From Seison nebaliae (taxonomy: Eukaryota): 64,000 nt of DNA. The notes under the pieces were generated by a model. It ran no database searches. It worked only from the letters and a program-made list of their open reading frames with translations, and had not been told where the DNA came from. Position 1 is the stretch's first letter; every line of letters starts with the position of its first letter. Positions 9,901-57,400 of the stretch are shown piece after piece. The stretch is from assembly GCA_023231475.1 (NCBI GenBank), contig JALJEE010002620.1:1-64000 (forward strand). The letters are read 5' to 3'. A program made the position numbers and the translations under genes.

Positions 9901-10350
9901 CTTGTTACTACTGAATTGGAGGAGCAGATTGACAGATGAATTTTATTTTATATGTTAAATTTTCCAGAGACATAAGTGTAAATATATCATTTGATGGCAG
10001 TGTGTTTAGATCTACATTTCTCCATTTTAGCAAATAAAACAGAGGTTGACTACTCTTGATCTAATTTTCTAATCCTTCTATCAATACGAGAGAGCAGTTA
10101 GAATGATTGACTATCGTCAACTCATCTTCTCACTTTCATTTCTCTCTCCCTCCCCATTTCCATACATTTCTGTATCCGTATCATATTCAACATTTCTATA
10201 TCACACTAGAATGAAAGTGTTTGTCTAATGAGAATTAAGAGGTCTTATCAAAGAATCATGATCATTACCTTCTTAATTAGTCGAAAGATTAACTGATCAT
10301 ATCTAGCTTTGTTTCTCACTTCCATTCCCAACATAATACCATCAAGAACA

Positions 10351-29175: not shown

Positions 29176-30386
<1,211 letters not shown>

Positions 30387-30687: not shown

Positions 30688-33600
30688 ATGAAGGAAATAT
30701 TAATACTTTTATGGATTCTTCCAATTCTATTCATCGATCTTATTTCATCATCTTCCTCATTCGATTGTGAGAAGAATAAAGGTTTTTTTTTGAAAATGAA
30801 TTATTTTTCATTTTCAAACTCATTCCTAAAAAGGTACATTAAAAAACATTGTTCGATTTGTTGAAAAATATTGGTTCACTGTTACGGAAAGTTCTTCATT
30901 TGTGTTGAATTGGACGAATGTTTAATATCACTTTTTTTTAGAAAATGAAAATGTCATTGACAAAGTTCGAGAGATAATAGTTAAAATGAAGGAATGTAAT
31001 GTGAATTTTGCCACAAAGTTCATTTTAGTTTCAGTTTGACTTTAAAAGATATTCTCGACACATTCAGATGTGGACCGTTTGATGGAGCATGTTTAAACGA
31101 CGGACAATGCTTAGAAAATAGTGTAGGAACATTCTACTGTAAATGTTCCGATGGATTCGAAGGAGTGATTTGTGAAAAAACGGTTAAGCAACCAAAGAAA
31201 CCGGTAGGGAAGATCAGGGTAAAAAAATGGACTCCGCAATTCGATTGTACATTGAACACTTGTCGAAATGGTGGAACTTGTACTGTGAATGGCTGTCTTT
31301 GTCGAAAGGAATTTTTTGGACCAATCTGTCAATATTTGAAAAGTCGATATATGAGAAGAAAAAAGTGTTTGGCCCGTCCGTGCAAAAATGGAGCTCGTTG
31401 TAGAATTGCAAAGAATTCGAGAGGTTTCCGATGTATTTGCGCGAAAGGTTATACCGGTCAGTTCTGTGAGAAAGAATCGAAATGCAAAAATAATGGACAT
31501 TTGGAAGACGACAAATGTTATTGTTTGCCGAATTTCACTGGAGAGTTTTGTGAATTCCATTCTGGATGTTTAACTAGTACATGTGATTCCAAACTAGATT
31601 GTGTTTTGAATTCGGAATCGAAAACTTACGAATGTCAATGTAAGAAAGGTTATAAAGGAGAAACATGTGAACCGGTCGGTTTATGTCGATTGAACAGTTG
31701 CTACAACGATGGTCGTTGTATTGAGAGAAGTAATGGATTTAGTTGTAATTGTAAAATAGGTTATACGGGAAAGTTCTGTCAAATTATCGATATTTGTTTA
31801 AAGAGTCCGTGTTTGAATGGTGGGTCGTGTACATATTCTAGTAATAATCAATATTATTGTTCGTGTTTAAGTGACTATGCTGGTGAACATTGTGAAAGAT
31901 GGTTAAGTTGTGAAAAGTTGAAATGTGTTCATGGAAGATGTGCCCGATGGGAACATTCGAGTGGTGAATTGACATGTGCATGTGAGAAAGGTTATTATGG
32001 GAAGAGATGTAATCGGAAATCACCATGTCTCTATCAGAAATGTAGTGATCATGGTAAATGTATCGATATTAAATTGGAGACGACCAATGACGACAGTTCC
32101 GCCACATATTATCAGTGTTTATGTGAACCTGGATTCACTGGCAGTAATTGTGAAGTTAATATTAATTGTCTCAATTTACATTGTCAGAATGACGGGAAGT
32201 GTATGAGGAAAATGAATGGCGATTATTATTGTGCTTGTTGCCATGGTTACTCGGGTTCAATGTGCGAAATAGCCATCGGATGTAACGCAAAACCTTGTAA
32301 GAATAATGGCCAATGTGTCTCGTCTACTAGTGTGGTGAGAAGTTACGTGTGTTTTTGTCGTTCATCATATGTTGGTAATCATTGTGAAATTCCGAAAATC
32401 TGTTGGCCGAACAAATGTCAGAATTCCGGTGAATGTTTCGAATATAACGGAAGTTACAAATGTAAATGTTCGACGGATTTCTCGGGGAAACATTGTGAAA
32501 TTCCTGTGAAATGTAATCCTGATCCATGCAATAATCACGGGAAATGCATAGCGGCACCGCATTTGTCCGATGGATTCGAATGTGTGTGCAATGTTTTATG
32601 GACCGGTAAATTTTGTGATAGTGAAGCGATTTGTGATTCTCAGCCATGTCAAAATGGTGGAACGTGTAATGCAGTGACACCGGAACGTCTTCAATGTTTA
32701 TGTCAACGAGATTATACTGGGAAATTCTGTGAATTTAATGTGCATTGTTATGATAATCCGTGTCGAAACGGAGGTAAATGTAAACCGGTTTTTTCTGGTC
32801 TTATTAAATTCGAATGTATTTGTAAATCCGCATTCCGAGGACAATTTTGTGAAGATTTGATAATTTGTCTAGCTAATCCTTGCAAGAATGGAGGAACATG
32901 TCGTCCAACAACGGAAGGAAATTATTTTTGTAATTGTATCGAAGGATTTCATGGGAAACATTGTGAACAATCGATTGGCTGTGATTCATATCCTTGTATG
33001 AATGGCGGTAAATGTGTTTCTTATTCTTCGGCTGGATTCTATTCATGTCAATGCAATTTCGGTTATAGTGGTATGTATTGTGAATTACCTCCCAATTGTG
33101 ATAACGAACAATGTAACAATCATGGAATTTGTGTGATGAATAAGGAGAAAGTTGTGAAGTGTAAATGTCATTCGAAGTATGTTGGGGATAAATGTGATAC
33201 TCATCAATTGTGTTCATCGAATCCGTGTAAGAATGGAGGGACGTGTTTGACTAGTGAATCTTATTATGATTCCACCATTATTAGTTGTGCTTGTTCGTCG
33301 GAGTTTAGTGGGGAATATTGTGAAGTTCCACAATCCTGTCTCTCCAATCCTTGTCGACATGGTGGCACTTGTTCCACGAATGTTAATGGTGGATATCTCT
33401 GTCAATGCACGAAAGATTATGAAGGAATTAATTGTGAGACATCGAGAACTTGTATCGGAGTTCCATGTAAAAATGGAGGAACGTGTGTAAATGTCCAAAT
33501 TCCTGATCAAAAGAATCATTATCGTTGTATTTGTAACGGGAATTATCGGGGAAATCAATGTGAAATTCCAATAACATGCAATTCACATCCATGCAAGAAC

Positions 33601-36600
33601 AATGGTAAATGTCTACAAGTCAGAGAAGGTTCGTTAGATATTTATTGTAAATGTTCTAAAGAATTTACCGGACGATATTGTGAAACTCCCATGGAATGTT
33701 TATCGAAACCTTGTCAGAATAACGGTCGTTGTGTACAGAATGGTCAAAGTGGATTGGATTATGCGTGTTTATGTTCGAAAGATTTTTATGGAAAATATTG
33801 TGACATTCCTCGATTATGTCAAACCGATCCATGTCTGAATGGAGGGAAATGTGTGCAAAAATCATTGGTCAGTGTTGATTTTATGTGTGTGTGCGATGCG
33901 TTGTTTGTGGGCAGATATTGTGAGATTCCCATTTCTTGTCAATCCAATCCATGTTTGAATGGTGGGAAATGTGTGAAACCGTTATATGGTAAAGTCGGTT
34001 TTATGTGTTATTGTGCCAATGGGTTTTATGGTGATAATTGTCAACAACCAGTTGCTTGTAAATCGGATCCATGTCAGAACGGTGGAAGTTGTGTCCAAAG
34101 TTTTCACAACAATTTACCGTATACCTGTAAATGTACCGTTCATTTCACGGGACATAATTGTGTCTCACCAATGACGTGTCATTCGAATCCTTGTCGAAAT
34201 GGAGGAACATGTTCTTCCGCTTCATCTAATGAATATCATTATTTATGCACTTGTCTCCCGATGTTCACGGGGAAAAATTGTGAATCGTACAAAGTTTGCG
34301 CGGAAGAACCGTGCAGTAATGGAGGGACGTGCATTCTAGATGAGAAAAGAGGTTACAAACGTGTTTGTCAATGTCAATCTCAATTTACCGGTAAGAATTG
34401 TGAGTATGAAGTGGCTTGTTCGTCTCTACCGTGTAAGAATAATGGCGTTTGTCGCACGGCGGGTGACAATTTCAAATGTGAATGTAGTGGTGGATTTACG
34501 GGACGGACGTGTGAGAAATTGATGGATTGTATTCCAAATCCTTGTATGAATCGCGGTAGATGTATTCAACGATATCCTGGTTCTACTATTTATAAGTGTA
34601 ATTGCCTTCCCCAATACACCGGTCCCATTTGTAAGACGTTCATCAAATGCTTTCCCAATCCGTGTCGCAATGAAGGAAAATGTATTCCAGACGGTGATAA
34701 TTTTATTTGTGAATGTTCGTTAGGTTTCCTCGGACGATATTGTGAACGACTGATGAATTGCGAATCAAATCCTTGCAGGAATTTGGGAACCTGCAGACAG
34801 AAAGTTGACGGATCCACAGACATCGTATGTGAGTGTCTCTCGTCGTATACGGGAAATCAATGTGAACTTTTTATTCCGTGTCAACAGAATCCTTGCGGTT
34901 CTCATGGTCGATGCGTACCGAAAGGAAGTTTGTTCAAATGTGAATGTGACGATTATCATACGGGCGATACATGTGAAATTGTGCGTGCATGTATATCGAA
35001 TCCTTGTGAAAATGGTGCAACATGTACACAACATTGGAATAATGTGGGAACTTTCTCTTGTCTTTGTTTAGCTCAATTCACTGGCAAGAGATGTGAGATA
35101 CCTTTGGCTTGTATATCACGACCATGTCGAAATGAAGGAGAATGTTTAGTTCATCCACTCAATATTAATTCTTATTCTTGTCGATGTCGGAAGGAGTTTG
35201 AAGGAAATAATTGTGAATCATTTCGATTATGTAAATCGAATCCTTGTGAGAATCATGGTAAATGTGCACCGAATAAACATTTTAATACTTTCGTTTGTCT
35301 ATGTCTCACTGGTTTCACTGGACATTATTGTAATGAATTGATTAATTGCCGACCAAATCCTTGTATGAATAACGGACGATGTGAAGGAAAGGCAATCGGA
35401 TCAACCGAATTCGTTTGTGTTTGTACACGAGGTTACACCGGTCAATTGTGTGACAACTTCATTTCTTGTAATCATCATAAATGTAGAAATGGTGGAAGGT
35501 GTAAACAGAAACATGACGGTTCGTTGAATTATCGTTGTGAATGTCCCATCAATTATCGTGGGCGATATTGTGAAGTTTTCATTCCTTGTTTGGCGATCGA
35601 ATGTTTAAACGAAGGTCAATGTATCGCCCAATATGAAGGTAGTTCTCAAGTTCAATGTATTTGTAAGAAATATTACACGGGACAATATTGCGAACATTAT
35701 ATCCCATGTGATATTAGACCATGTTTGAATGGTGGAACATGTTTATCCAATCTCAAAGTTTCCGGTTCATTCATTTGTACTTGTCTATCCGGTTTCACTG
35801 GGGAACGATGTGAAACTTTAGAGATATGTCAAACGAATCCGTGCGGAAAACACGGACGTTGCGAACAAGCGAGTATCGCGAAAACTGATTATGTCTGTCG
35901 ATGTAACGCGTATCATGAAGGAAAGCATTGTGATATGGCCACGGTTTGTATAAAGAATCCTTGCTCCAATAACGGCGTTTGTTATGTGGCTGAAAGTGAA
36001 CCATATAAATATTTATGTCGATGTAAAACACATTTCACGGGGACACGTTGTATCGATTTAGTGGAATGTAACACATTGAAATGTGAAAATGGGGGAATGT
36101 GTGTGCAAAAAGAAGCAAATTCACCAAATGCCATTTGTAGATGTCGGCCCGGATTTTCTGGTAAGAATTGTGAATATATCATTGGTTGTTTGAGTGCTCC
36201 TTGTCTGAATGGCGGGAGGTGTCGAACGAAGAGTTTGCATTCCATCGAAGTAGTTTGTGATTGTCCCAACGGTTACATCGGAACGAAATGTCAAGAATTA
36301 TCAGCATGTCTGTCCAATCCGTGCAAGAATGACGGGAAGTGTTTCGTTAATAGTTTCAATCAATATAAATGTGAATGTGTCAACGGGAATTTCGGTCGTA
36401 ATTGTGAAATTGATGCAATTTGTTTCGGCATTTCATGTCATAATGGAGGGAAATGTATCGTAAAGAATAAACTACCCAAATGTCAATGTACCGCCAATTT
36501 TAAGGGAAATCATTGTGAATCATTAATTTCTTGCATTCCAAATCCTTGTGAGAATGATGGAGTATGTTACAGGAATTATCCTGGTTTTACTTATCGTTGT

Positions 36601-39600
36601 GAATGTAATGTCGGTTATTCAGGTAAGAGATGTGAGATAGCTAAAGCTTGTGCCATTAAGCCATGTAAGAATGAAGGAAAATGTTTGACTGTCACTCAAT
36701 ATCCGTCATTATATCAATGTAAGTGTAAAAGTGGATATATCGGGAGAAATTGTGAATTCCTAGAAATATGTGTTCAAAACTTGTGTGAGAATGGAGGAAC
36801 ATGTGTACCGTCATATCCAGGTGCCAGAACATATCGATGTATATGTCCTGAAGGATACAATGGGCCTCGATGTGAAATATTTCACAAATGTCTCCCATCG
36901 CCTTGTAAGAATGAGGGGAAATGTCTACCGATATTTGGGTCATTGTCGTTGTTCCGATGTCAATGTCCGATAGGTTTCATCGGAAAGTTATGTGAACAAT
37001 CGATTTTATGTATAAAGAATCCGTGCTTGAATGGTGGGAAGTGTCGAGCGGTGAATAATCAAATTCGATGTGAATGTAATTCCAATATTTGGATGGGCAC
37101 TCGGTGTGAAATTTCTGTGAAATGTTTGTCGTATCCGTGTTTGAATGGTGGAACATGTCGTTATGATATGAAGAAAGATATTTCTTGTTCTTGTTTACCT
37201 GGTTTTACGGGAAAGGTTTGTGAAATGATAAGTAGTTGTCAAATCAATCCGTGTAAGAATAACGGAAAATGTATTCAGAGAAATATAAACACACCAGAAT
37301 ATATGTGTAAATGTTCGCCTTATTATTTTGGAATTCATTGTGAAATTCCAACAGCGTGCGCATCCAATCCTTGTTTAAATAACGGAAATTGTATTTTTGA
37401 CGGAACTTTAACTTATCGTTGTGAATGTATTAATGGATTCACCGGCAATCATTGTCAATTACCCAATACTTGTAAATCGAATCCATGCAAGAATGGTGGG
37501 ACGTGTATGGTTTTCGGGAATAATATATCAGCGTTCAAATGTTTATGTCGTTCTCTGTTTACTGGAAAATATTGTGAAAATCGAAAAGTCTGTTCGCCTA
37601 ATCCCTGTCTGAATAATGGAATCTGTAAAATGAACATTAGACATTCCTATCGTTGTTTATGTCAAATCGGTTTCAAAGGTAATCAGTGTGAATTTTCGAA
37701 AATCTGTCAACCCGATTCGTGTAAGAACAATGGTCAATGTATTGAGAATAATTTTGATGGTTTCATTTGTAAATGCAATCACGGTTTCCAAGGCGATCGA
37801 TGTGAAATGTTAACATCGTGCTTATCGAAACCATGTTTAAACGGTGGAAGCTGTTTACAGAAACTGAATTATGTCAACGATTATTATTGTAAATGTGCCA
37901 TCGGTTTCATTGGGAGAATATGCCAGAACAAAACCTCCTGTATTTCCAACATTTGTCAGAACGGAGGTACTTGTCAAGTCAGTTCGAGTAATCGATTATA
38001 TTGCCTTTGTCGTTCCGGATATACTGGTGTACAATGTGAAAATTTTATTAATTGTAATCCAAATCCGTGTAGTAATCATGGAAAATGTGTACCGATAAAT
38101 TCTTTGTCAATTTTACATAAATGCATTTGTCAACCGAATTTTACGGGAATTGATTGTAGCATTTCCGTAGCGTGTCTCTCCCTACCATGTAAACATCATT
38201 CGACTTGTATTCCATTGATTTCAGCTCCATCTTCCCGAAATTATCAATGTATCTGCCAAATTGGTTATACCGGTATCAATTGCGAGAATGTGATGGTTTG
38301 TCAAAGTGCACCTTGTGTGAATGGAGGGAAATGTAGACGTGACATTAGTAATCAACAATCGTATATTTGTCAATGTCCTTCCCAATTTACGGGAAAACAT
38401 TGTGAAACTACAGTGATTTGTTTGCATAATCCGTGTAAAAATGGTGGAATTTGTACTTCGGTGGTGGGTAATAAATATTCATGTAATTGTAGATTTAGTT
38501 ACAAAGGTGAACATTGTGAGCAATTTATTCCGTGTGAGAAATTCAATTGTCAGAATGGCGGAATTTGTCAACCACAATTCATTGGTTCACCTATGCCAAT
38601 TTGTACTTGTCCATTTGGGTATGTCGGTTCGAATTGTGAAATTTTTTCATCCTGTTACCCTAATCCATGTGGTGCAAACGGAAAGTGTATTCCTGATCCG
38701 GTTCATTCAGGAAAAGCGAAATGTTTATGTAACCAGTATTTTGGAGGTCTACATTGTGAAACATTTCTGCCTTGTAATTCCACGGCGCCATGTCTCAATG
38801 GTGGAACTTGTCGTTATACGACAGCATCATCAATCCTTTCTCATCGAATGTGTTATTGCCCACCGGATTTCACAGGTAAAAGATGCGAGACATCTTTAGT
38901 TTGTATGTATCATCCATGTGAGAATGGCGGCACTTGTCAATATGACAGTCATGGTTCCATCGAGAAAAGGAAATGTTTATGTCAAATTAGTTGGGAAGGA
39001 GTCGATTGTCATATTTTTCACAAGTGCACGAATAATCCTTGTAAGAATCATGGTCATTGTACTCCAAATGCAGATAAGACGAACTTCAAATGTAATTGTC
39101 GAAAACCATATTATGGTCGTTTATGCGAAAAGTTTCTCCCATGCGAATCAGTCAAATGTAGTAATGGAGGACATTGTGTGCCTTATTATCCCGGAAGTTC
39201 CGAATATTTATGTAAATGCAAAGTTGGTTACATCGGAGAGCATTGTGAATATAATTCCAGATGTCTACCAAATCCTTGTTTAAATGGCGGTGTTTGTAAT
39301 GTGAGATATTCACAAATTCATTGTAAATGCATCAAAGGTTGGAAAGGCAGTCATTGTGAAATATTCGGACCGTGTGAAACATACAAGTGTCTAAACGGAG
39401 GCAAATGTGCAAAAGATGAGCACGATCAAATTTCTTGTCTTTGCACTGGCAGTTTCACAGGGAAACATTGTGAAACATTTGTGGATTGTCTAAAATATCC
39501 ATGTCTGAATGGAGGTGAATGTGAATTTGATAAGAATTTTGTGAAAAGGTGTGTCTGCAAAAATAATTATATTGGAGATAATTGTGAAATTTATGAACCG

Positions 39601-42600
39601 TGCCAGAAAAATCGATGTCTGAATGGAGCGACATGTATCAGTAGTCCATCAGAGAAAAAATTAAGAAAGTGTCAATGCACAACTGGATTCTATGGAGATG
39701 ATTGTCAACATCCGATTGGTTGTCGTGCTAACCCTTGTCATAATAATGGTAAATGTTATGCTTTTTTGAATAATCCATTAGAAATCAGATGTGAATGTCT
39801 CCACGAATATACCGGGAAACATTGTAAAACATCTGTTCATTGTCTACCGAATCCGTGTAAGAATAACGGAATATGTTCCTACGATTTACACCATCACTTA
39901 ACCAAGTGTAAATGTACCAAACTATTCACCGGACCGTTCTGTGATGAATTTAAATTGTGTCTATCAAATCCATGCAAACATAATGGAATTTGCAAGACAA
40001 CATCCATTTCTCCACCTCAATTCAAATGCATTTGTCGTTCCGGTTTTACTGGCACTACCTGCGAATCATATTCAGCATGTATTCCGAATTTGTGTGATAA
40101 TGGTGGGAAATGTATTGCCAATGAACAGTTTCCCTTAATCGTTCGTTGTTTATGTCAGCCGGAATTTACCGGAGAATTTTGTGATTCATTCCGATTATGT
40201 ATTCCTAATCCATGTAAGAATTATGGAATTTGCAGTAAATTCGGTTCCCACTATAAATGTTCTTGTCGTTTCGGATATACGGGTCATAGCTGTGAATCGT
40301 TAGTTGCTTGTACGTCGAATCCGTGTATGAATGGTGGTTCGTGCATTCCAAGTGCATCAATGATTGGCACGTTTAATTGTCGTTGTGCTCATTCTTATTC
40401 GGGAAGATTCTGTGAACATCATATAAATTGTCTAAATGGTTACTGTATGAATGGAGGTAGTTGTTTCACTAAAAATGGAGAACCACATTGTCGATGTACC
40501 CCATTATTTTTGGGGATTAAATGTGCAACGCCCATTATTTGCAGATCTGCTCCTTGTGCTAATAACGGTACTTGCATAACGGCTCCATTCTCACCACACG
40601 GTTACAAGTGTTTATGTCAAACCGGTTTCGTTGGACGATATTGTAAATTACCTGCCAAATGTGTCCCAAATCCTTGTTTGAATCATGGAAAATGTGGTAG
40701 CGATAGTATAAATCCGAAGGACATTCGATGTCAATGTAATAATAATTTTGTGGGTAAAAGTTGCGAAATATTCAAGCCGTGTCTCAGTCATCCATGTCAG
40801 AATGGTGGGAAGTGTCAACCTAGAAAGAATTCATTTTACCAATATAAATGTGTGTGCAAAACCGGATTTGAAGGACATTTTTGTGAGAGAGTAACTGTTT
40901 GTAAAACGAAACCTTGTCTACATAGAGGTCAGTGTCACATCAAAATTAATGATCCATTTACACCTTTATGTAAATGTAAACCTGCGTTTTATGGTGATCG
41001 GTGTCAGTTGGCTAGAATATGTGATGTTAATCCATGTTTACATGGAGGCAAATGTTCTCCTCATCCGGCTAACCCTAATATGGCATTTTGTAGATGTCAA
41101 TTAGGATTTGAAGGGAAATTCTGCGAATTGTCAATTGAGTGTAAGAGGAAACCTTGTCTTCACAATGGCACTTGCAAATGGGGATTAGATGGATATAATA
41201 GAGCGAGTTGTATTTGTACGAAAGAGTTCGTGGGGAAACGTTGTCAAATTCCGAAGATTTGTGTAAACTATCAATGTAACTTTGGGAAATGTTATGTGAA
41301 GAAAACAGATTTATCAAAACCTCATTGTTTGTGTTTGAAAGATTATACGGGATCAAAATGTTTAACGCCAAAAATATGTCAATCGTCTCCGTGTAAAAAT
41401 GGAGGTAGTTGTTTCGTTACCGATATTAAGCTAGGTTATCAATGTAGTTGCACCGAACATTATGGTGGGAAGAATTGCGAAATATTTTTACCTTGTCAAA
41501 TTAATCGTTGTTTAAATGGAGGACGATGTGTGGAGAAACCTGGACATATGATCTTCTGTCAATGTTCTAATGATTATCATGGAAAGTTTTGTGAGAAACC
41601 GAAAGCCTGTCTGAGTAAGCCGTGTAAGAATAATGGAATTTGTATTTCTTCTTCGACCAATTCCATATTCGTACCATATTCATGTGTGTGTCAACCTGGT
41701 TTCCAAGGTTTTTTTTGCGATACACCAATTGTATGTTTAATGTCGCCGTGTTTGAACGGTGGGAAATGTTCGGTTAGTAAAAGCGACGCTTTCAGTGTCG
41801 TTTGTACTTGTACACCGAAATATACAGGTCGTTATTGTGAAAGTCTTCAAGAATGTGTATCGAATCCATGTAAGAATGAAGGAATTTGTTCACAATCTTT
41901 AATTGTTCACGATAAAATATCTTGTCATTGCCAACGAGGATTTACTGGTAGTCTATGTGAAGTTATATTGGCTTGTTCACCGAACCCTTGTGAAAATAAT
42001 GGGACTTGTATCGCATTGAACAAACGTTCAACTGTACCCAAATGTGTATGTCTGAATGATTTCGAAGGAAATACTTGTGAAATCTACAAGAAATGTGAGC
42101 CGAATCCTTGTCAGAATGGTGGTGTTTGTTTAAAATATGGGACTACGTACAAGTGTCAATGTTCGAAGAGTTTTACCGGTCGTATTTGTGAGAATATGAT
42201 TGCTTGCTTCTCTAATCCTTGTCATCATAATGGAAAGTGTGTACCATTATATTCAGGCAGTTCCGAATATAAGTGTCGTTGCAAAACGGCTTTTGTCGGG
42301 AAATATTGTAAAGTTCCTGTGGCTTGTCTACCTAATCCATGTAATAATAATGGTAAATGTGCTTATTCGCCTAACTCAAGTTTTGGGTATAAATGTGTTT
42401 GTCCTAACAGTTATGTCGGAAAGAATTGTAATGAATTGAAATTATGTGCTCAACATAATCCGTGTTTAAACGGTGGAAGATGTATCGAATATCCTCCATC
42501 ATCTCGCCAATACAAATGTATTTGTAAATCGGAATTTGAAGGAACTAACTGTGAAATAATATCCATTTGTTCTCCGAATCCTTGTCAAAATAATGGCAAG

Positions 42601-45600: not shown

Positions 45601-48600
45601 GGTTATACGGGGAAATATTGTACGACCATAATAGCCTGTTCCCCAAATCCATGTCTAAATAATGGAAAATGTAAGATAAAAAAATTGAACGTTTTCGATT
45701 TCACATGTGAATGCGAGAAGAAATTTACGGGAAATCGTTGTGAATTACCATCAATCTGTTTAAATAATCCGTGTAGGAATAATGGGAAATGTATCAGCGG
45801 TGTCCACCAACTGTTTAAATGTATTTGTCCCGTTGGATTCATTGGCGATAGATGCCAGAATGTGGCAGCTTGCCAACCTAATCCCTGTCAAAATAATGGT
45901 CGTTGTTCCATATCGAAATTGGGATATGGTTATCAATGTTTCTGCACGACGGACTATTATGGTGATAATTGTGAATTGCCTACGATTTGCCGCCCGAAAC
46001 CTTGTAAGAATTCCGGTATATGTTTTGTGAAAGATGGTAAATTGAAATGTTTATGTAAATATGGTTACACAGGTATTCTTTGTGATAAAGCTCTTGCTTG
46101 TCAAACAGCACCTTGTCTTAACGGAGCCACTTGCATTCCTTCACCTACCTTATACGGTGATTTCAAATGTTTATGTCCGCCTAATTTCACTGGTCGACAT
46201 TGTAATTCTCCATTAATTTGTTTAACGAAACCATGCAGTAATGGTGGATCTTGTTTGAAGAATGACACAACTGGAATAACTTATAAATGTCTTTGTTCGA
46301 AAGGTTTCACGGGCAACAACTGTAATGTTTTAGCCGCGTGCGTCCAAAAACCTTGTGAAAACGGAGGTACGTGTTCGCCAGCTTGGTATGGAACTACCAA
46401 ATATAAATGTGTTTGTCCTCCCGGTTTTTCCGGAACTCATTGCAAGAAATTTCTTCCTTGCTTCCCTAATCCTTGTCTGAATTTCGGTATTTGTGGAAAT
46501 AAACCATTACCGGCGCTGGATTTTGAATGCAAATGCAAAAAACCGTTCAAAGGTAAATTATGTGAAATTGCCAAAATTTGTGAGAGAAAAATCTGTTTTA
46601 ATGGCGCACAATGTGTGGCTAATGCAAATTTGAAATTACCATTTAAATGTATTTGTAAACCTGGATATTTTGGGAGGAGATGTGGTCGGTTAAAGGCGTG
46701 TTATCCTAATCCTTGTGAAAATGGAGGAAAATGTAGACCGATAACTGCAGGATCTACTGAAATAAAATGTGTTTGCTCACCCGGATATACTGGTGCGACT
46801 TGTAATTTAATTTCGAGTTGTATACCAAATCCTTGTATGAATTTGGGTAAATGTCAAATGAGAAAAGATGCTCCTACTTCATTCCAATGTGTTTGTGGCA
46901 AGGAATATACTGGAAAGACATGTAAACTATTGAAAATATGTTTGAACAATCCTTGTCAAAATGGTGGTAGTTGTGTCCAACATCAATGGAATTCTCCCAT
47001 TCATAAATGTTTATGTCCGAAAGAATTCGTGGGAAATAAATGTGAAATTTTCAAAGGTTGTTCACCGAATCCATGTAAGAATGATGGACTATGTTCGTTT
47101 AGACCTCCAAATATATTCCATTGTAAATGCAAAGAATATTTTTATGGAAATCATTGTGAGAGGTTGGTAAAATGTAGTAAGAATCCTTGTAAGAATGGAG
47201 GGTCATGTAAACAAGTCACTCCTGGTTCAACTGAATATGAATGTGTTTGTCAATCCAATTATGGTGGTAAAAATTGTGAAGTTTCAATTCAATGTCAGAA
47301 AATTGAATGTTTGAATGGAGGAACTTGTAAGGTGGTTAACACCACAACTGCCAAATGTGAATGTTCGAAAGAGTTTTATGGAAATCATTGTGAGAATCTC
47401 AGAATATGTCGACAGAAACCATGTTTAAATGGTGGAACATGTCGACAGTCACAAGCGGCCTCCACAAAGTTCATATGTGATTGCGCTCCTGGATTCAGCG
47501 GTAGTCATTGTCAAATATTATCAAATTGTGCAAATAATCCATGTTTGTACGGAGGTAAATGTATACCGAACCCCAAAGATCAGACAAAGGTTTTATGTCA
47601 ATGTAATAACTTTTATACGGGAGATAAATGTGAAACTCTGAAGCATTGTTTGATGAAACCTTGCAAAAATGGTGGAACTTGTCTCTCAATACCATTAAAG
47701 ATTGGTTTGTATAAATGTGTTTGTTCGAAAGGTTATATAGGTCAACATTGTGAACAACTATTAAGTTGTCAATCTAATCCTTGTTCCAATGGTGGAACGT
47801 GTGTTCCTGCTTGGGATAAGTCTGTAGATTTCAAGTGTTTATGTTCCGAATATTTCGTGGGTAAATTATGTGAGTTACCAAAAATTTGCCGACCCAACCC
47901 ATGTTTAAATCTTGGAAAATGTCATGTACATGCTGTGGATAAGAAAAAATATTTGTGCCAATGTGTCTTAACGTATTTTGGTGATAATTGTGAGAAATAC
48001 AAACCGTGTTATCCTAATCCGTGCGGTAAACATGGAACGTGCATTAAACCTTTGGATCATACAAGTTATAAATGTATCTGCGCTCCACATTATACGGGAA
48101 GTGATTGCTCATTGGCAATTGGTTGTTCCCCCAATGTTTGTTTGAATAGTGGAAAATGCGGTTTATCTGAAAAGGGAGACCAAATAATTTGTAATTGTAC
48201 TGTCGATTACTACGGACGGTTATGTGAATCATTAAAAGTTTGTAAGAGTAATCCGTGCCTGAACGGAGGTATTTGTAAATTACCTTTCCCAATTTCAACA
48301 AATTATTTATGTGCTTGCAAACCCGGGTTTAATGGGCAACGATGTGAAATATTAAAAGCCTGTATACCCAACCCGTGTTTGAATAAAGGTGTCTGCTCAT
48401 CTATTACACCCGGTTCATCTGCAATCATGTGTAACTGTAAATCGGATTTCGTGGGGAGTAAATGCGAAACTTATGTACCTTGTTTTCCGAATCCTTGTCG
48501 CAATTCAGGGAAATGTCGTAAAAATATTGGGAAACCTAAAAAATATGAATGTATCTGTACTCGTTATTACATTGGGGAACATTGTGAAGTTCCACAAAAG

Positions 48601-51600
48601 TGTTTGGTGCCACCTTGTAAGAATCATGGGACATGTCAACCGATAATTTCAGCACCGTTCTTCAAGTGTTTGTGCATTGCAAATTTCGTGGGAGAACTTT
48701 GTGAGAAATTTAAAAAATGTCAACCTAATCCTTGTTTGAATGGTGGCATATGTGGAGTAATGGATTCAATAGGAACTGATTTTAAATGTACCTGTCCTCC
48801 TGATTATCAAGGAAAGAAGTGTCAAATTTATAGATATTGCTTGCCCACTATCTGTGCTAATGGGGGAACGTGTATCCCAATAAAAACTAATGAAAAATTC
48901 AAATGTCAATGCACTGATAAATTCAAAGGGAAACGTTGTGAGAAGAGAATTGTTTGTAAATTTGCTCAATGCAAGAACGGGGCAACATGTCAACCAATGA
49001 CAGATACAACATACAAATGTAATTGTCCTTCAGGATTTTTCGGGAATTATTGCGAAATTAAAAGTTCGTGTTCCACGAAGAACCTCTGTCAAAATGGAGG
49101 AACTTGTTCAGATATTTTAATTCCACCATATTATGAATGTAAATGTCGAAGGATATTTAAAGGAAAACATTGTGAAATACAAATTCCATCATGTCAATTA
49201 GGGTTATGTAAGAACGGAGCGACATGCAAGCAACATCCTGATTTGAAGCAGTTTCGGTGTATTTGTATCCAACCCTTCGGTGGTCGTTATTGTATAAAGA
49301 ATGTTGGATTTTGTCATTATAAACCGTGTGTGAACGGAGGAATTTGTAAGAATGTTAATCATAACTCTGGTTTTGTTTGTCAATGTCCGAAACCGTATAT
49401 TGGTAAGAGATGTGAATCAAGCTTGGGTATATGTACAATTCTCCCGTGCAAGAATCATGGCACCTGTTTACAGAATGAAATCAATAACATGATTTATAAA
49501 TGTCAATGTCATGCTCCATTTTATGGTGATTCGTGTGAATTAGTTAATCATCATTGTGATATGAATCCTTGTAAGTATTATGGGAAATGTATACCGGTAA
49601 TCAATGGTCGTTATAGATGTAAATGTCGAGAAGGTTTTTCAGGTGAACATTGTGAAAATAAATTAGTTTGCTATAGTAATCCGTGTAAGAATAATGGAAT
49701 GTGCATAAAAGATCCGAAAACGGATCGATTTAAATGTATTTGCAAAATACCATATCATGGTCGACGATGTGAATTGAAGATGGGAAAATGTTACAGTAAA
49801 CCGTGTAAGAATAAAGGGAAATGTAACGAATTCGATGAAACGTTCTCTTGTGAATGTCCTTTGCCATATACTGGACGTATCTGTGAATTGGAATTAACCG
49901 CATGTTCATTCCATCCGTGTTTAAATGGCGGTCGATGTATTCAAAGTATCACCAGTAAACGGAAATACAGATGTGCCTGTTTGAAACTATTTACAGGTAT
50001 TAATTGTGAAAACCGTTTGAGCGCTTGTGTAGTTAGACCATGTAAAAATGGCGGAACTTGTATTGTCGATCCATCAGATCTCAGTAAATTTAGATGTGTG
50101 TGTGGTAGGATTTTTACCGGAACCACATGTCAAACTAGTTTAGGGGCCTGTTCATTGAAACCATGTGCTAATGGTGGAAAATGTGAAAATTCACCTGATA
50201 AAAAGCAATTCCGATGTATTTGTGTTAAACCGTTTTCTGGTGCTCAATGTCAGAAGAATGACGGTGTTTGCAAATCAGTGAAACCATGTTTGAATAATGG
50301 AAAATGTATCGATTTAGGTGGCTTGAACTATCAATGTATCTGTTTAAAAGGTTACCATGGCGACAGATGTGAGATAAAAAGTGCTTGTCTCAGTAATCCG
50401 TGTTTGAATGATGGTACATGTGTCAAACAACCGAACGATTATAAATGTATTTGCAAATCGCCCTTTGTCGGCAAACGATGTGAATTACGACAACATCCTT
50501 GTAAATCGCTACCATGTCTCAATAGTGGAACGTGCATTTTGGCGGCAAATTTTGATTATAAATGTGTTTGCAAACTACCGTTTCATGGAAGACGGTGTGG
50601 GAAGAATGCTGGTTCTTGTTCGTTAAAACCGTGTTTGAATGGAGGAAAATGTTTGCAACATAAAGATCTCATCCAATTCAAATGTCAATGTTCGAATTTA
50701 TTCACTGGACAATTATGTGAGAGAATAATTAGTCCGTGTGAGACCAAGCCTTGTTTGAATAATGGAAACTGTTTAATAATCGATGAGAAGAATTATAAAT
50801 GTGAATGTCCTCCACAATTCACTGGAGTGAAATGCGAGAAATTATTTGATGTTTGTACATTATCTCAATGTAAAAATGGTGGGACGTGTGAAGCGGTTGG
50901 TTTCGATCAATACAAATGTCTTTGTTCAATCGATTATTATGGAAATTTATGTGAAAATGAAAAAGTGTGTAAGACGACCAGTTGTTTGAATGAGGGGAAA
51001 TGTGTGGTGATCAATGAATTAGAATTTCAATGTGAATGTAATTTGAACTTTGGAGGGAAGATATGTGAACATGCCAATCCGTGTAAGAGTAATTCCTGTC
51101 TAAATAATGGCGTATGTTTTCCTCAATATTCGGATAAGGTTTCTTTCTTGTGTGAATGTACGGAAAAATTTGAAGGAAAAAATTGTGAGAAATATGTCAA
51201 TCCGTGCAGGAATATTCAGTGTCTGAACGAAGGAACTTGTAAAAATCAGGGACATGCCAAATTCGTTTGTAAATGTCCTGTGAAATTCACCGGTCGATTA
51301 TGTGAAGTTGAAATTCCAATTTGTGAGAGTAAACCATGTAAAAACGATGGTATTTGCACTTCAGATGATTTCAACGAAGAATTCACTTGTAATTGTCCTC
51401 CGAAATATACGGGGAAGTTTTGTGAAAAAATTAAATTATGTACTAAACATCCGTGCAAGAATGATGGAATTTGTACGGATTATTTGAATTCATTCGAATG
51501 CGAATGTACTATACCGTTTTATGGAGCGAAATGTGAGAAAGAAATTTGTAAGCCGAATCCATGCAAGAATAAAGGCGTTTGTGAAATCGTCAATGAACAA

Positions 51601-54600
51601 GGCGATTATATTTGTAATTGTGTTCCGCCTTATACTGGACGAATCTGTTCGAGAAAATCTGGAGATTGTTCAATCGGCTCATGTTTACATGACGGTCAAT
51701 GTCTATTCGATGAAGAAACGACGAAATATTCTTGCACTTGTAACGAACCGTTTTATGGTAATAAGTGCGAGAAGATGAGAACAGTTTGCGATCAGAAACC
51801 ATGTCTCAATGGAGCGAAATGTAAAGTGATTGGAGATAATTATTTCGAATGTATTTGTAAAAATGGATATGCCGGACGGTTATGTGACATACCTCCCGAT
51901 CCATGTCGACCGAATAAATGTCTGAATAATGGTATTTGTGAAATGACAAGTAGTAAAAATTTCAAATGTGAATGTACTCCAATTTTCACGGGAAGATTAT
52001 GTGAGAAACGAATTTTTATTTGTAAATCAAAACCATGCAAAAACGATGGAAGTTGTTTGGACAATAAAGATGGAACATATGAATGCATTTGTAGTGTCGG
52101 TTTTAAAGGCTTAACATGTGACATCGAAGCTCCTTGTAGTAAGAAACCGTGTAAGAATAGTGGTTATTGTAGTTTGATAGGAGAAGGTAAATATAAATGC
52201 GAATGTTCATTACCATACTATGGCGAACGATGTGAGAAGCATTTATGTAAACCGAATCCTTGTAAAAACGGCGCATCTTGTGAATTGTTACATCGAGATA
52301 CGGAATTTCGATGTATCTGTCGAGTACCATTTACGGGTCTTTATTGCAAAATAAAAGCCGGATCATGTACCCCAACTACTTGTAAGAATGAGGGAGAATG
52401 CATTTTCGATTACGATACGGGAACATATCGATGTCAATGTGGTAGAATATTTTATGGTGAACATTGTGAAAAGACGAAAAGTGGTTGTGATAGACGACCT
52501 TGTTTGAATAAAGGGAAATGTAAATCGTTAACTTTCCCCCGATATCAATGTATATGTGTCAATGGGTTTAGTGGGCGACGTTGTGGCATTCCACCAAATC
52601 CATGTGAACCGAACATCTGTAAAAATAATGGAAATTGTCAGCTTATGGGAAATTCAAAATTCTCTTGTGAATGTCCTCCAATTTTCACAGGGAGATTATG
52701 TGAAACAGAAATATTGGTATGTAAAAGTCAACCGTGCAAGAACGGTGCACTATGTATCGACAATAAAGATGGGACATTCATATGTCAATGTAAGATTGGA
52801 TTTATCGGTGATTTCTGTCAATTGGTAGCGCCGTGTGCAAGTGTGCCATGTAGGAATGACGGAGTGTGTCATGTGCGATTAGGTGCAATTGAGTGTGAAT
52901 GTGTTTATCCGTTTCATGGTGTGCGTTGTGAGAAAGAGTATTGTAAACCGAATCCATGTCACAATCGAGGGCAATGTGAATTGGTTAATAATAATATTGG
53001 ATATCGATGTCGATGTATTCCACCATATATGGATCTTCTTTGTAATGTGAAAGCGGGCTATTGTACACCAACAACGTGTGCTAATGGTGGATATTGTGTG
53101 TTCGATGAGGAAAGACGACAATATATATGTCAATGTCCCTCACCATATTACGGTAAGAGTTGTAAGAAATTTAGAACGCCTTGTAATGAGAAACCTTGTC
53201 TTAATGGAGGTAAATGTAAACCGATCGGATTCGACAATTATGAATGTCAATGTGTTAATGGTTATAGTGGGATGAATTGTGGGCGCCCACCAGATTTGTG
53301 TTTTCCTAGCAAATGTCAAAATAGTGGCAGATGTGAAATGATAAATGTGAAACAATTCGTTTGTTATTGTCCCCCGATCTTCACCGGAACGTATTGTGAG
53401 ACTCGAATTCTGATCTGTAAAAAGAAACCCTGTCAAAATAATGGAGTATGTGTCGACAATATGGATGGAACATTTAATTGTGAATGCAAATTAGGATTCT
53501 TTGGAGATTATTGTGAGAAACGAAACTATTGTGCGAATGATCCTTGTAAGAATGGAGGAGCATGTAGACTTGTCGATGGGATACTGGAGTGTTCTTGTAA
53601 ATTTCCGTTTTATGGTAAACGATGTAAGAAACAAATTTGTCATCCGAATCCTTGTCAGAATAAAGGAGTTTGTGATGTGTTGGAAGAGAAAGAAACTTAT
53701 AATTGTAATTGTGTTCCACCATTTATCGGTAAGAATTGTCAGATTCGTGCAGGAACTTGTTCCATCACTTCCTGTTTGAATGGAGGAATTTGTATGTTCA
53801 ATGTTGAATTAGATACATTCCAATGTGAATGTAATGAACCGTTTTATGGTAAGAAATGTGAAAAGGTTTTCACCATTTGCAGTGGGAAACCATGTCAAAA
53901 TGGAGCATTGTGTAAACCGAAAAGTTCGAATGAATTTGATTGTGTTTGTAAGAATGGATATTCAGGGAAATTGTGTACAATCCCACCATCGATTTGTAAC
54001 CCGAACAAATGTCAGAATGGTGGGCATTGTCAAATAGTTTCGAGGAATAAGTTCCGTTGCGATTGTCCTCCACCATTCATCGGACGATTATGTGAAAAGA
54101 GAATTTATGTGTGCAAAAGTTCTTCTTGTAAGAATGATGGGAAATGTCAGGACAATAATGATGGAACATTTTCGTGTCTATGCAAGAAAGGATTTGTTGG
54201 ATTGTTGTGTGAGAATCAAAAACTTTGTGATCAACATCCATGTAAGCGAGATGGAATTTGTAGAGAGGTGGATGGACATATCATATGTGAATGTTCATTT
54301 CCGTTTTATGGTGAAAAATGTGAGAAAGAACTGTGTAAACCAAATCCTTGTCAGAATGACGGTGAATGCAATATAATTAATATCGAATCAAATTATCGAT
54401 GTAATTGTCGTCCTCCGTTTATTGGACGACATTGTGAAACGAGTATCGGAAAATGTTCCCGAACGTCATGTCTCAATAATGGTCAATGTATTTTCAATTC
54501 AGAAGTTCACTATTTCCAATGTCAATGTATTCGACCGTATTATGGTGATAATTGTGAGAAATTTTTCACCGTCTGTGATGCAAATCAATGTCTCAATGGA

Positions 54601-56096
54601 GGTGTTTGTAGAATTGTCGATACAACTAATTTTGCATGTGAATGTGTCCACGGATTTAGTGGCGAACGTTGTGCAATTCCACCCAATTTATGTCGTTCTC
54701 ATATTTGTCAAAATAACGGCGAATGTCAAATGGTGAGTGCGGCGGATATCGTTTGTAAATGTCTACCACGATTCACCGGTAAATTTTGCGAAACGAGAGT
54801 GTCAATTTGTCAAACGATAATTTGTTTGAATGGAGGAACATGTGAAGAAATCTATAATGATGATTTTCATTGTTCTTGTCCATCAGGATTCTTCGGGAAA
54901 TTATGTGAACAACTTGATATTTGTTCTACAAATCCTTGTCAAAATAATGGAATATGTCAATTGACAAGTGAGAATAACGACCATTATTCATGTCGTTGTT
55001 TACCAGTTTATTATGGGAAGAATTGCGAAGAACGAATAAGTCCGTGTATGAAAGGTTTATGTAAGAATGGTGGAAGTTGTGTAATTGTGGCAGAAAGTAA
55101 ATTCAAATGTGAATGTCAATCAGATTTTGAAGGAACATTCTGTGAAGTAGTAATTGGTTGCCAAACAAATCCTTGTTTGAATAAAGGCAAATGTACGAAA
55201 CATTCTCATTTCGATTTATATAGATGTGAATGTCCGATAAACTTCCAGGGTAGAAGATGTGAACATCATCTCGATCATTGTTCATCAACTGTGTGCTTTA
55301 ACGGAGGACGTTGTGGTCAGTATTCGAGAAATGGACAGATAATTATTTATTGTGAATGTCTACCCAATTTCGGTGGGCAACATTGTGAAAGAGATGAGAG
55401 TTGTTTAGTAAATAATTGTGCGAATGGAGGAAGTTGTGTTGAAACACCGACATCTTTCGGCTTTATTTGTTTATGTCCATTGGAATTCTTTGGAAAAGCT
55501 TGTCAATATAAACGAGATCAATGTCCAAATAATCCTTGTAAAAATAATGCACATTGCTACTTTACTAACGGAAGAATTCACTGCAAATGCTCCAACGGAT
55601 ATTATGGATTATATTGTCAACATTTTAAAAAGGTATGTGATATTAAGGAAGAACAAACATTCGTTATCGCTTCAGTAAATCTCAATTATTACAAACATAC
55701 ATCTTCCAAATTCGTAAGTTTCTTTGTTCATGATGAGAATCCATTTAATCGGCGCAACTGTCAATTTAATTACACTCCTCAAAGGTTCATTTAGATATTA
55801 ACACTTGAAAACTCTTTAATAATCTTAACAAATATTATTCTAGTTGTGATGACCGATTTTGTAGCATGAACGGGAAATGTTATTTATGTGCAAATGGAAA
55901 TTATCGTTGTGATTGTAATAAATTCTTCGAGGGTAAAACATGCAATGTACGTCGGAAACATTCAATCGGGAAATTTGTAACTAAAATCGAAACCGACTCA
56001 TTGACTTTATTAAGTACAACTGGCACTCGGAGAGATTTCTTCATCTATGAAACCGATTATATAATAACATCGAAAGATAATCTGTGTTATGTTTAA
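30688..56096 (+). CDS. Giant secreted multi-EGF protein, ~8,398 aa, about 200 tandem EGF-like domains, 5 exons
   Basis: Exons 30688-30781 (signal peptide MKEILILLWILPILFIDLISS), 30834-30890, 30942-31017, 31068-55784 and 55844-56096 total 25,197 nt in one frame. Continuous C-x2-(N/K)PC-x-NxGxC..CxCxxxF/YxGxxCE modules. No transmembrane segment seen; AATAAA at 56097. EGF count is estimated from length, not counted. Confidence 0.9.
51547..55026 (+). repeat. Five diverged tandem six-EGF super-repeats (~696 bp) within the giant gene
   Basis: Equivalent C(K/H)PNPC modules start at 51547, 52246, 52942, 53638 and 54334 (spacing 699, 696, 696, 696 nt), with the same order of module types in each unit. 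Confidence 0.85.
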
Positions 56097-56692
56097 AATA
56101 AATTATGCGATTAAAATTCTATATTCACTTCTATAAAACTTTGAATGAAATTTTGCTTGGCGACTAAAAAATTGAAAATATTTGTCTTATAGTTTTTATT
56201 ATTTGTATAATTTATGTTTGTGTAACTCTGTATATGACCGTAAAACAAGAATAATTACAACTTTAACAGTCCATATTAATCATGTACTAATTCTCTGTTT
56301 TCCCATTCACATATCTATTATTTGTTCTGGTCATGTTTTTTTAATGTGAAATTATTGCTGTATCTATTAACCCAAAAATCCTTTATTTTAAATGTTCTCA
56401 AAGGAACCAGATGATTTAATTATGTTTAATAATTCTTCTCATCGTTCATATCTACCGATAGATCGCACCTACACATTCTATGACAATTGTTCATCTTTTT
56501 TTCAACCACTTGTTAGTTTTTTACATTTTTCACTAATTACGCTAACAATCATAACATTGTAAGAGTAATATCATAAAAAGCATATATTCTTGGAGTATTT
56601 TTTCTCCTTTATCCAATGATGTCCATTACGCTATGTGTGATGAAATATAATAAAACTGGGATCAGTAATATAACATGTGAGGTATAGCTATA

Positions 56693-56900
56693 CAGTATGT
56701 TCGATTGATTCTCGGACATCGGCATTTAGATCTTATTATACATTACTAATTTTTGATTTTTATGCAACTTGATTGATAATTATTCATTGTGTGGATTATT
56801 CATCACATAATAGATGAACTAAAAAATTCACAAAATAACTTTTCTCAACGATGAATTTTACCCAAAATTCTCCAAAATTCCAAATCAATCGAACATACTG
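56693..56900. mobile_element. 208-bp non-autonomous MITE, Tc1/mariner-type
   Basis: Perfect 18-bp terminal inverted repeats cagtatgttcgattgatt (56693-56710) and aatcaatcgaacatactg (56883-56900). They start CAGT and are flanked by TA on both sides (56691-92, 56901-02). No internal ORF. Confidence 0.75.
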
Positions 56901-57400
56901 TATGTGTACATATTAGCTACATGACCGACATTTTATATTCACTGTCATCGTCAGATATTATGATCTATCAAGTAATATTTGTGTTCATAATTCTTAAGAT
57001 TTCATATTCTCCTTCGATCCTTCATCTACAATACTGATTATCCGAGAGTTCTTCGATTGACTATATTTGTCATTGACAACGAACACGACCGCAATTTTGT
57101 CTAACTCATTTTAAAACACTCCGAGAGAAATTTTAATAACTAATAATAATAAAATTCACAATTTAAAACATTGAAATTATTTTCCTGACTTTCATCGATT
57201 TTTGATAAATTTTAAGGAAAAAATATTATTAATTTTCCTTTTTTCTATAGGAAACCGATTAATTAACATAAAAGTTTAGTTTAAATGAAAATGAGAAAAA
57301 TAAATAATAGGAAGAATAATAAACTTTTAATATTTTCCACAAATCTTATTCTGTGAATGAGGAAGAAATGGAATCGATGAATCAAATCATTTAATTGGAA

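What the first reader, a model, noticed from the sequence alone, without database searches (positions are those of the whole stretch)
30688..56096. ~8,400-aa secreted protein of ~200 uninterrupted EGF domains: candidate giant adhesive or structural fibre
Seen: signal peptide, short unique leader, ~8,180 aa of back-to-back EGF modules and a short tail. No TM, ZP, vWF, CUB, LamG or Notch-type domain is visible. The modules lack the calcium-binding (D/N)-x-(D/N)-E-C start and are rich in Lys, Pro, Gly and aromatics (CKPNPCKN-type). Established: Notch has 36 EGFs and fibrillin ~47; Dumpy has more but mixes other modules and is membrane-anchored. Mussel byssal plaque protein Mfp-2 is a short array of similar basic non-calcium EGFs. 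Inference: an extended disulfide-rich rod, possibly hundreds of nm long, acting as glue, cement, egg coat or cuticle scaffold.
Basis: partly seen in the sequence, partly recalled or inferred. Interest (0 to 1): 0.85.

Follow-up and report, generated by a model that had tools for sequence, protein, structure and literature searches.

The report
Giant 209-EGF secreted rotifer protein
A gene of the crustacean-dwelling rotifer Seison nebaliae holds one unbroken 24.7-kb reading frame with over 200 EGF modules in a row; it is predicted to make a secreted, positively charged 8,400-residue chain that likely serves as a glue or coat fibre gripping the host's chitin, built like mussel glue protein Mfp-2 but more than ten times longer.

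Summary
The window is Seison nebaliae DNA (a neighbouring kinase is 100% identical to a named protein). 30688-56096 is not one ORF. It is best read as five exons with four 51-59-nt GT-AG introns (inferred, no RNA), one exon being 24.7 kb. The model has 8,397 aa, 928 kDa, pI 8.6 and 209 EGF-type modules, 204 of them joined by linkers of 6 aa or less. It has no calcium consensus, no transmembrane stretch and no other Pfam domain. DNA contigs span the 3' half gap-free, no exact repeat reaches 28 nt, and internal copies show dN/dS 0.2-0.55, so it is an old, selected gene and not an artefact. It had the most EGF modules of 376 relatives examined (next: 128) and was absent from three protein searches. 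No orthologue was found. Function is untested. Best reading (0.40): an Mfp-2-like multivalent glue or cement fibre for the chitin cuticle of the host Nebalia. Close rival (0.35): a structural coat or matrix scaffold. Verdict: new variant of a known kind; interest 0.55.

The parts
30688..30781 (+). Exon 1 (inferred): ATG, hydrophobic signal-peptide-like N-terminus, lone Cys27
   Evidence: hydropathy peak 2.33
30782..30833 (+). Intron 1, 52 nt, GT..AG (inferred)
   Evidence: present in 14 of the 15 top-scoring splice models printed
30834..30890 (+). Exon 2 (inferred), unique leader
30891..30941 (+). Intron 2, 51 nt (inferred)
   Evidence: present in 13 of the 15 top models printed
30942..30995 (+). 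Exon 3 (inferred), unique leader
30996..31048 (+). Intron 3, 53 nt (inferred; least certain junction, chosen by hand to keep the first EGF intact)
31049..55784 (+). Giant exon 4, 24,736 nt: 207 six-Cys EGF modules, one 4-Cys remnant, two basic spacers near the start, non-EGF insert at the end
   Evidence: DNA contigs cover 44500-56718 gap-free
51424..54906 (+). Five copies of a 6-module super-repeat (modules 172-201, 232-233 aa each, 44-56% identical)
55633..55784 (+). About 50-aa non-EGF insert with a Cys pair; no family found; could partly be an intron
55785..55843 (+). Intron 4, 59 nt, 20% GC (inferred; the only listed donor whose phase joins the last EGF in frame)
55844..56096 (+). Exon 5 (inferred): last EGF module with an extra Cys, 50-aa tail with a lone Cys third from the end, stop codon
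56097..56102 (+). AATAAA directly after the stop (candidate poly(A) signal; exact position within 1 base)

Best explanation
This is a real, intact Seison nebaliae gene with over 200 tandem non-calcium EGF modules, predicted to encode a secreted ~930-kDa basic chain that likely acts as a multivalent glue or cement fibre fixing the animal or its eggs to the chitin cuticle of its crustacean host. Shown: the frame, the modules, the charge (+1.8 per module), the lack of calcium sites and other Pfam domains, purifying selection among internal copies. Inferred: splicing and secretion. Inferred by analogy: each disulfide-locked module binds GlcNAc weakly and ~200 modules give high avidity, as measured for mussel Mefp-2 on chitosan; the positive charge would add attraction to anionic surfaces and biofilm; four Cys without an obvious partner (residue 27, module 9, the last module, residue 8395) would cross-link chains, mostly near their ends, into a network. 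Speculative: 43 O-GlcNAc consensus sites could put the ligand on the chain itself and give cohesion. Contour length would be up to about 0.5-0.6 micrometre (2.5-3 nm per module, recalled), less if kinked.
For: Architecture equals the Mfp-2 plan: N-terminal hydrophobic stretch, short leader, EGF-only array. Mytilus Mfp-2 sequences read in the supplement show the same 4-5-n-1-8 spacing, by eye. pI 8.6 against 9.14 for Mefp-2. Net charge per module +1.84 against a median of -1.86 in 154 fetched EGF-array proteins, of which 12 are positive and 1 is higher. Mefp-2 adheres to chitosan at 41.8 mJ/m2, less after deacetylation and not at all after GlcNAc blocking, and the authors invoke multivalency (PMC11697411). 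Seison lives on Nebalia gills. Giant glue proteins exist in other microscopic spiralians: Mlig-ap1 5,407 aa, basic, with EGFs; Mlig-ap2 14,794 aa (PMC8621496 passages). A foot ending in an adhesive disc with glands, and eggs fixed to the host, are recalled; I did not find them in the library.
Against: No expression, localisation or binding data. The features shared with Mfp-2 are generic to non-calcium EGFs, and human EGF also bound chitosan in that paper, so they do not single out glue. Tyr is only 338 of 8,264 residues, 152 of them at two structural positions, so a DOPA glue is not indicated. Known EGF adhesives are short (up to 16 in the list parts seen, 19 in the text). Seison has at least three other giant EGF proteins, two of them apparently membrane-bound, and free-living rotifers have ~4,200-aa ones, so giant EGF arrays in this phylum are not tied to an epizoic life. 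Described flatworm glue genes often carry long near-identical repeats, whereas these modules are old and diverged. 64 O-fucose and 44 O-glucose consensus sites are Notch-like.
Confidence: 0.4

Rival explanations
1. A secreted structural scaffold of the animal itself, working like the EGF part of Dumpy or like fibropellin: a long disulfide-rich tether in the outer coat, egg shell, sperm capsule or the chitinous jaw and foregut lining, giving tensile strength or spacing and not attachment to the host.
For: Same architecture data. Regular 5-aa linkers with a hydrophobic third residue in 78% of 160 cases suggest calcium-free domain packing, as in a stiff fibre. Confident multi-module model, pLDDT 92.9, pTM 0.65. 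Dumpy uses over 300 EGFs in apical matrix and some carry O-GlcNAc (PMC8520396 passages). Old, diverged, length-stable array. Chitinase-type genes lie 3-7 kb upstream, though linkage in a compact genome means little.
Against: No known polymerisation or anchoring domain (ZP, vWF, CUB, avidin, TB) by Pfam. The strong positive charge is unusual among the fetched matrix EGF proteins. No orthologue found in other rotifers, where a core matrix protein might be expected.
Confidence: 0.35
2. A membrane-tethered receptor, ligand or cell-surface stalk whose anchor lies in an exon or splice form I missed, like the other rotifer giant EGF proteins.
For: SNEBB_005763 ends in a transmembrane-like stretch, SNEBB_008263 carries phosphatase domains, and the bdelloid and Brachionus giants have C-terminal hydrophobic stretches. 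An alternative acceptor at 55794 would give a short hydrophobic C-terminus. No RNA tests the 3' end.
Against: The last exon encodes a proper EGF module, then a stop with AATAAA right behind it. The alternative hydrophobic frame is mostly the 20%-GC intron and scores negative for codon use (-3.6). Only 1.3 kb, holding a transposon remnant, separates the stop from the next gene's frame. The negative scores of downstream frames are circular, because that DNA was in the training set, and are not counted.
Confidence: 0.08
3. A gamete- or partner-recognition coat protein, in which many different EGF loops act as a binding or identity code (ascidian vitelline-coat VC70 is the recalled model).
For: Seisonids are strictly sexual and distinct lineages co-occur (PMC8351084). 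The module loops are very diverse.
Against: No ZP domain. Only 1 difference in 12.2 kb between the window and a second sample, so no sign of high polymorphism.
Confidence: 0.08
4. A polyprotein precursor that is cut into many small EGF peptides acting on the host or on own tissues.
For: 17 linkers hold a dibasic pair, and there are basic clusters near the N-terminus.
Against: No R-x-K/R-R site in the whole protein. Linkers are 4-6 aa and hydrophobic, likely buried. About 190 linkers lack a dibasic pair.
Confidence: 0.06
5. An assembly artefact or a dead repeat array.
For: No matching protein among the listed hits of three searches. The 5' part (30688-44499) was not checked against reads.
Against: Single gap-free contigs over 44500-56718 in 3 of 4 runs from two studies and flat depth (one study may be the window's source). 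No exact repeat of 28 nt or more in the frame. 8,264 codons without a stop, near-perfect Cys pattern, dN/dS below 1 in 10 of 10 pairs.
Confidence: 0.02

Closest known systems
Mussel foot protein 2 (Mfp-2 / Mefp-2, adhesive plaque matrix protein 2) and ark-clam bcbp-1/2
   Same: Signal-type N-terminus plus tandem non-calcium EGF modules of the same Cys spacing; basic pI; little else in the chain.
   Different: 209 modules against 11-12 (Mytilus) and 16-19 (bcbp); linkers mostly 5-6 aa against about 4; no acidic leader; orthology not tested and unlikely; DOPA and localisation unknown.
Drosophila Dumpy
   Same: Giant extracellular chain with hundreds of EGFs; O-GlcNAc consensus sites.
   Different: Dumpy has over 300 EGFs mixed with 185 DPY and about 40 PIGSFEAST repeats and is membrane-anchored; its ZP domain is recalled. 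This protein is EGF-only with no anchor, and has fewer EGFs in total.
Rotifer giant EGF proteins (Seison SNEBB_005763, SNEBB_000637, SNEBB_008263; bdelloid and Brachionus ~4,200-aa 'Delta-like' and Reeler/FN2-EGF proteins)
   Same: Same phylum; very long, largely non-calcium EGF arrays; top scores in all three searches at 28-39% identity.
   Different: They have at most 114 anchors, irregular modules, long extra domains and often a membrane anchor, and are net acidic; module order is not clearly shared.
Notch, fibrillin, EYS, Crumbs, SNED1
   Same: EGF fold (single module rmsd 1.0-1.9 A to solved EGFs); O-fucose and O-glucose consensus sites.
   Different: No calcium consensus, no EGF_CA, LNR, ankyrin, LamG, TB or FN3 match, no TM; predicted joints differ from Notch rods.
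Macrostomum adhesion proteins ap1 / ap2
   Same: Giant size, positive charge (ap1), EGF modules, microscopic spiralian.
   Different: ap1 has C-lectin, vWD, C8, TIL, up to 18 EGFs in the species listed and a low-complexity K/R region; none of these extra parts is here.

Membership tests
EGF-like domain proteins (PF00008) | Six-Cys EGF module and fold | tested here: met
   PF00008 1,259 and 1,317 bits; 207 modules; model pLDDT 92.9, single-module rmsd 1.0-1.9 A
Mfp-2-type adhesive plaque proteins | Signal peptide plus tandem non-calcium EGF array without other domains | tested here: met
   signal peptide by hydropathy only, on an inferred exon
Mfp-2-type adhesive plaque proteins | Basic protein | tested here: met
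   pI 8.6, +1.84 per module; Mefp-2 pI 9.14
Mfp-2-type adhesive plaque proteins | About 11-12 EGF repeats, ~50 kDa | tested here: not met
   209 modules, 928 kDa against 11-12
Mfp-2-type adhesive plaque proteins | Present in the adhesive secretion; binds GlcNAc polymers; carries DOPA | not testable with these tools
   no RNA, protein or binding data; Cys5 and a following Gly are kept (205 of 206) but are generic and the paper's text does not say which Gly
Mfp-2-type adhesive plaque proteins | Orthology to Mytilus Mfp-2 | not tested
   Mfp-2 was only read in a supplement, not aligned
Calcium-binding EGF arrays (Notch, fibrillin) | D/N-x-D/N-E/Q calcium consensus and beta-hydroxylation motif | tested here: not met
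   0 and 1 of 207; no PF07645 match
Notch receptors and DSL ligands | LNR, ankyrin, DSL or C2 domains and a transmembrane helix | tested here: not met
   Pfam finds none in exons 4 and 5 or exon 1; no second hydrophobic stretch; exons 2-3 (37 aa) not scanned
Dumpy | DPY repeats, ZP domain, membrane anchor | tested here: not met
   linkers of 4-6 aa leave no room for DPY units; no ZP match; no TM
Fibropellins | CUB domain and C-terminal avidin-like domain (recalled) | tested here: not met
   the tail is only 50 aa
Rotifer giant EGF proteins | Shared non-EGF ends (C2/DSL-like head, long tail, TM, Reeler, FN2) | tested here: not met
Rotifer giant EGF proteins | Colinear module order | tested here: inconclusive
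   2 of 9 proteins just above the best of 8 shuffles (P0001 10.4 vs 9.3; P0182 7.3 vs 7.0), 7 not
Macrostomum ap1 | C-lectin, vWD, C8, TIL domains and K/R-rich region | tested here: not met

The most novel reading that the evidence does not exclude
The longest pure EGF polymer known in an animal: a single ~0.5-micrometre, end-cross-linked, calcium-independent 'Velcro' fibre with ~200 chitin-binding modules that is the main DOPA-free glue by which a rotifer holds on to its host, and the first molecular handle on the attachment step between free-living rotifers and parasitic thorny-headed worms.
Probability: 0.25. Interest if true: 0.85.

Novelty: new variant of a known kind. Interest (0 to 1): 0.55.

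Why it matters
The array is about ten times longer than any EGF adhesive in the list I could read, and the longest EGF run among 376 relatives examined. It did not turn up in the protein collections searched, so it seems to have been overlooked. If it is glue, it tests the proposal that EGF arrays adhere through GlcNAc with avidity rising with length, in an animal whose natural substrate is chitin, and it gives about 200 natural sequence variants of one binding module. It would also be a first candidate attachment molecule for seisonids, the proposed epizoic sister group of acanthocephalan parasites. If it is a matrix scaffold, it is still an extreme case for folding and export: about 625 disulfides in one chain from one 24.7-kb exon in a genome with ~50-nt introns.

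Tried and rejected
No RNA holder was listed; this says nothing about expression. The 5' part of the gene has no read check. Metagenome scan: 27 pattern matches, 1 confirmed, 0 loci returned. Single-sequence fold of the last 174 residues of the frame gave pLDDT 43.6, unusable. Atlas: generic EGF clusters for the end of exon 4, no usable hit for the tail. Pfam: nothing for the insert or exon 1. phmmer of the unique pieces against 240 fetched proteins: best E 0.38 for the leader; the output was cut at 30 rows, so results for the other three pieces were not seen. A profile of the protein's own modules ranked SNED1-like and tunicate proteins highest and rotifer giants no higher, which reflects closeness to the generic consensus, not kinship. 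Automatic ranking of 602 5' splice models put 4-intron models that break the first EGF on top; I rejected them by hand. Codon-use scores of downstream frames are circular. No solved multi-EGF chain matched the predicted joints (best Z 7.8, rmsd 10.2 A); this does not show a new fold. Literature: ten searches listed no paper on this gene or on seisonid glue; most morphological work on Seison is outside the library. Earlier scan notes: nothing by place, sequence or first word set. No complex prediction was run, as no partner is known.
Full report
Source. The window is 30% GC, gene-dense animal DNA. The SH3-kinase frame at 20.5-23.2 kb is 100% identical to SNEBB_010670 of Seison nebaliae, the next hit being 33%. 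Seison is an epizoic rotifer up to 2.5 mm long that lives on the crustacean Nebalia, is strictly sexual and has compact genes (PMC8351084: abstract, sections 3, 6, 9 and passages). Specimens are stirred off the host's gills (PMC3919803 passage).

The gene. The stop-to-stop frame is 31000-55794 (8,264 codons). Three short 5' exons and one 3' exon, joined by GT-AG introns of 52, 51, 53 and 59 nt, give 25,194 coding bases and 8,397 aa, 928 kDa, pI 8.6, 1,258 Cys. These introns are inferred. Introns 1 and 2 recur in 14 and 13 of the 15 top models printed out of 602. Intron 3 was chosen by hand. Intron 4 uses the only listed donor whose phase puts the last EGF in frame. The kinase's 44-nt GTT..AG intron shows the same style. 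AATAAA follows the stop.

It is real. A frame this long has a chance of about 10^-276, and the other + frames have 302 and 927 stops. Contigs of four DNA-type runs (two samples, two studies) cover 44500-56718 with flat depth: three in one gap-free piece, one in two overlapping pieces, with one substitution in all. One study may be the window's own source. The 5' part has no such check. No 28-mer occurs twice in the frame, so repeat collapse or expansion in assembly is unlikely. Modules 172-201 form five copies of a six-module unit (lag-6 similarity 0.30 against 0.05-0.08), 44-56% identical, with dN 0.39-0.53 and dS 0.97-2.28. All 10 pairs have dN/dS of 0.18-0.55, though dS is near saturation. 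The first 150 modules show no clear period. The array grew by old duplications and has been kept intact since.

Anatomy. A hydrophobic N-terminus, a ~50-aa leader, then EGF modules from residue 76. 207 fit the six-Cys pattern, 199 of them with identical core spacing; with a 4-Cys remnant and a 7-Cys last module there are 209 anchors. 203 of 206 linkers are 4-6 aa. Pfam finds only EGF-type families. Calcium consensus 0 of 207, beta-hydroxylation 1, O-fucose 64, O-glucose 44, O-GlcNAc 43 (motifs recalled). Where calcium EGFs have acidic residues, the 5-aa linkers have Glu first and a hydrophobic third residue in 78% of 160 cases. In the long frame K+R is 992 and D+E 624. Four Cys lack an obvious partner: residue 27, the extra Cys of module 9, the extra Cys of the last module and residue 8395. 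There is no RGD, no furin site and no second hydrophobic stretch. An eight-module piece folded on an alignment of 35 internal blocks gave pLDDT 92.9, pTM 0.65. Single modules match solved EGFs at 1.0-1.9 A, while three-module Notch rods match at only 7.5-8.8 A. The joints are thus predicted to differ from calcium rods.

Relatives. Three searches (234 hits, 120 listed; 2,301, 120 listed; 16,750, 150 listed) returned no copy of this protein and nothing close (best local identities 42% or lower for long matches). Top scores go to other long EGF arrays: Seison SNEBB_005763 and SNEBB_000637, bdelloid and Brachionus ~4,200-aa proteins, echinoderm proteins and an unnamed record P0004. Among the 376 fetched proteins examined (29 kinases left out), the highest anchor counts are 128, 114 and 101, against 209; longest runs 98 against 208. 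Dumpy-sized proteins lay outside the length window, and Dumpy has over 300 EGFs mixed with other repeats (PMC8520396 passages), so the claim is about an unbroken, EGF-only run, not the total. Net charge per module is +1.84; 12 of 154 comparison proteins are positive and one is higher. Module order was not clearly shared with 9 tested giants. No orthologue was identified.

How it likely works. The plan is that of mussel Mfp-2: secreted, basic, non-calcium, EGF-only. PMC11697411 (abstract, introduction, results and most of the discussion; parts 1-2 of 3 of Supplementary Data 2) reports Mefp-2 adhesion to chitosan of 41.8 mJ/m2 that falls with deacetylation and vanishes with GlcNAc blocking, and credits multivalency. 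Its list tops out at 16 EGFs, the text at 19. For an animal clinging to a chitin-clad host in a gill current, a 200-valent version is a fitting glue or egg cement, with the lone Cys as cross-links. Flatworm glues show that microscopic spiralians use giant adhesive proteins (PMC8621496 passages). This step is analogy. The shared features are generic, rotifers have other giant EGF proteins with other likely jobs, and nothing here shows where the gene is expressed. I give glue or cement 0.40, own-body scaffold 0.35, missed membrane anchor 0.08, recognition coat 0.08, cleaved precursor 0.06, artefact 0.02.

Novelty. Ten literature searches listed no paper on this gene. Word searches in PMC8351084, PMC12256650 and PMC12690905 found no 'EGF' in their main texts, and PMC8878817 mentions only single-EGF lectins; their supplements were not read. 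PMC3426538 and PMC5098970 were seen as passages only and gave nothing on seisonid glue. An unchecked earlier scan note describes another giant-exon EGF-type protein in an annelid, which hints that such genes recur in Spiralia. It is not a member of Notch, fibrillin, Dumpy, fibropellin or ap1 by their defining features, and too long to file as Mfp-2, though it may work like it. Verdict: a new variant of a known kind, extreme in scale, function open; interest 0.55.

Noticed in passing
window 56690-56903: Small non-coding element with perfect 21-nt inverted ends that begin with TA and about fivefold depth in all four runs: likely a Tc1/mariner-type miniature transposon between the giant gene and the WD40 gene.
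   Followed up: partly
window 29183-30386: Actin gene with one short intron; its stop lies only ~300 nt before the giant gene's ATG on the same strand, leaving very little room for a promoter.
   Followed up: no
window 23681-28110: Two GH18 chitinase-type frames and a chitin-binding CBM14 frame 3-7 kb upstream of the giant gene; possibly one multi-domain chitinase; link to the giant gene untested.
   Followed up: no
window 20524-23195: SH3-kinase (MLK-like) gene identical to SNEBB_010670, with one 44-nt intron at 22831-22874.
   Followed up: yes
window 57395-60469: WDR62/MAPKBP1-like WD40 frame of 1,024 codons.
   Followed up: no
window 3126-18609: Myosin head frame (12037-13663), core-2 branching enzyme, mL44-like and TMEM70-like frames, and three long frames without a Pfam match (3126-4961, 6122-7399, 14899-16752).
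   Followed up: no
window 49107 and 50928: Loose contig ends of 255 letters in three to four runs point to other genomic places with short similarity to the array, perhaps further EGF-array genes.
   Followed up: no
window 49597: The only substitution between the window and run X2 over 12.2 kb; it changes Val to Leu in a variable loop.
   Followed up: partly
P0004: Unnamed 5,645-aa record with 128 EGF anchors, strongly acidic, ending in a transmembrane-like stretch: a second extreme EGF array of unknown origin.
   Followed up: partly
P0001, P0002, P0214: Three more giant Seison EGF proteins (101 and 114 anchors; one with tyrosine-phosphatase domains): the compact genome keeps several very long EGF genes.
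   Followed up: partly
P0150-P0169: Bdelloid and monogonont rotifers share ~4,200-aa EGF giants of two types (DSL-bearing with a membrane stretch; Reeler/FN2 with ~70 non-calcium EGFs), all unnamed in the sources.
   Followed up: partly
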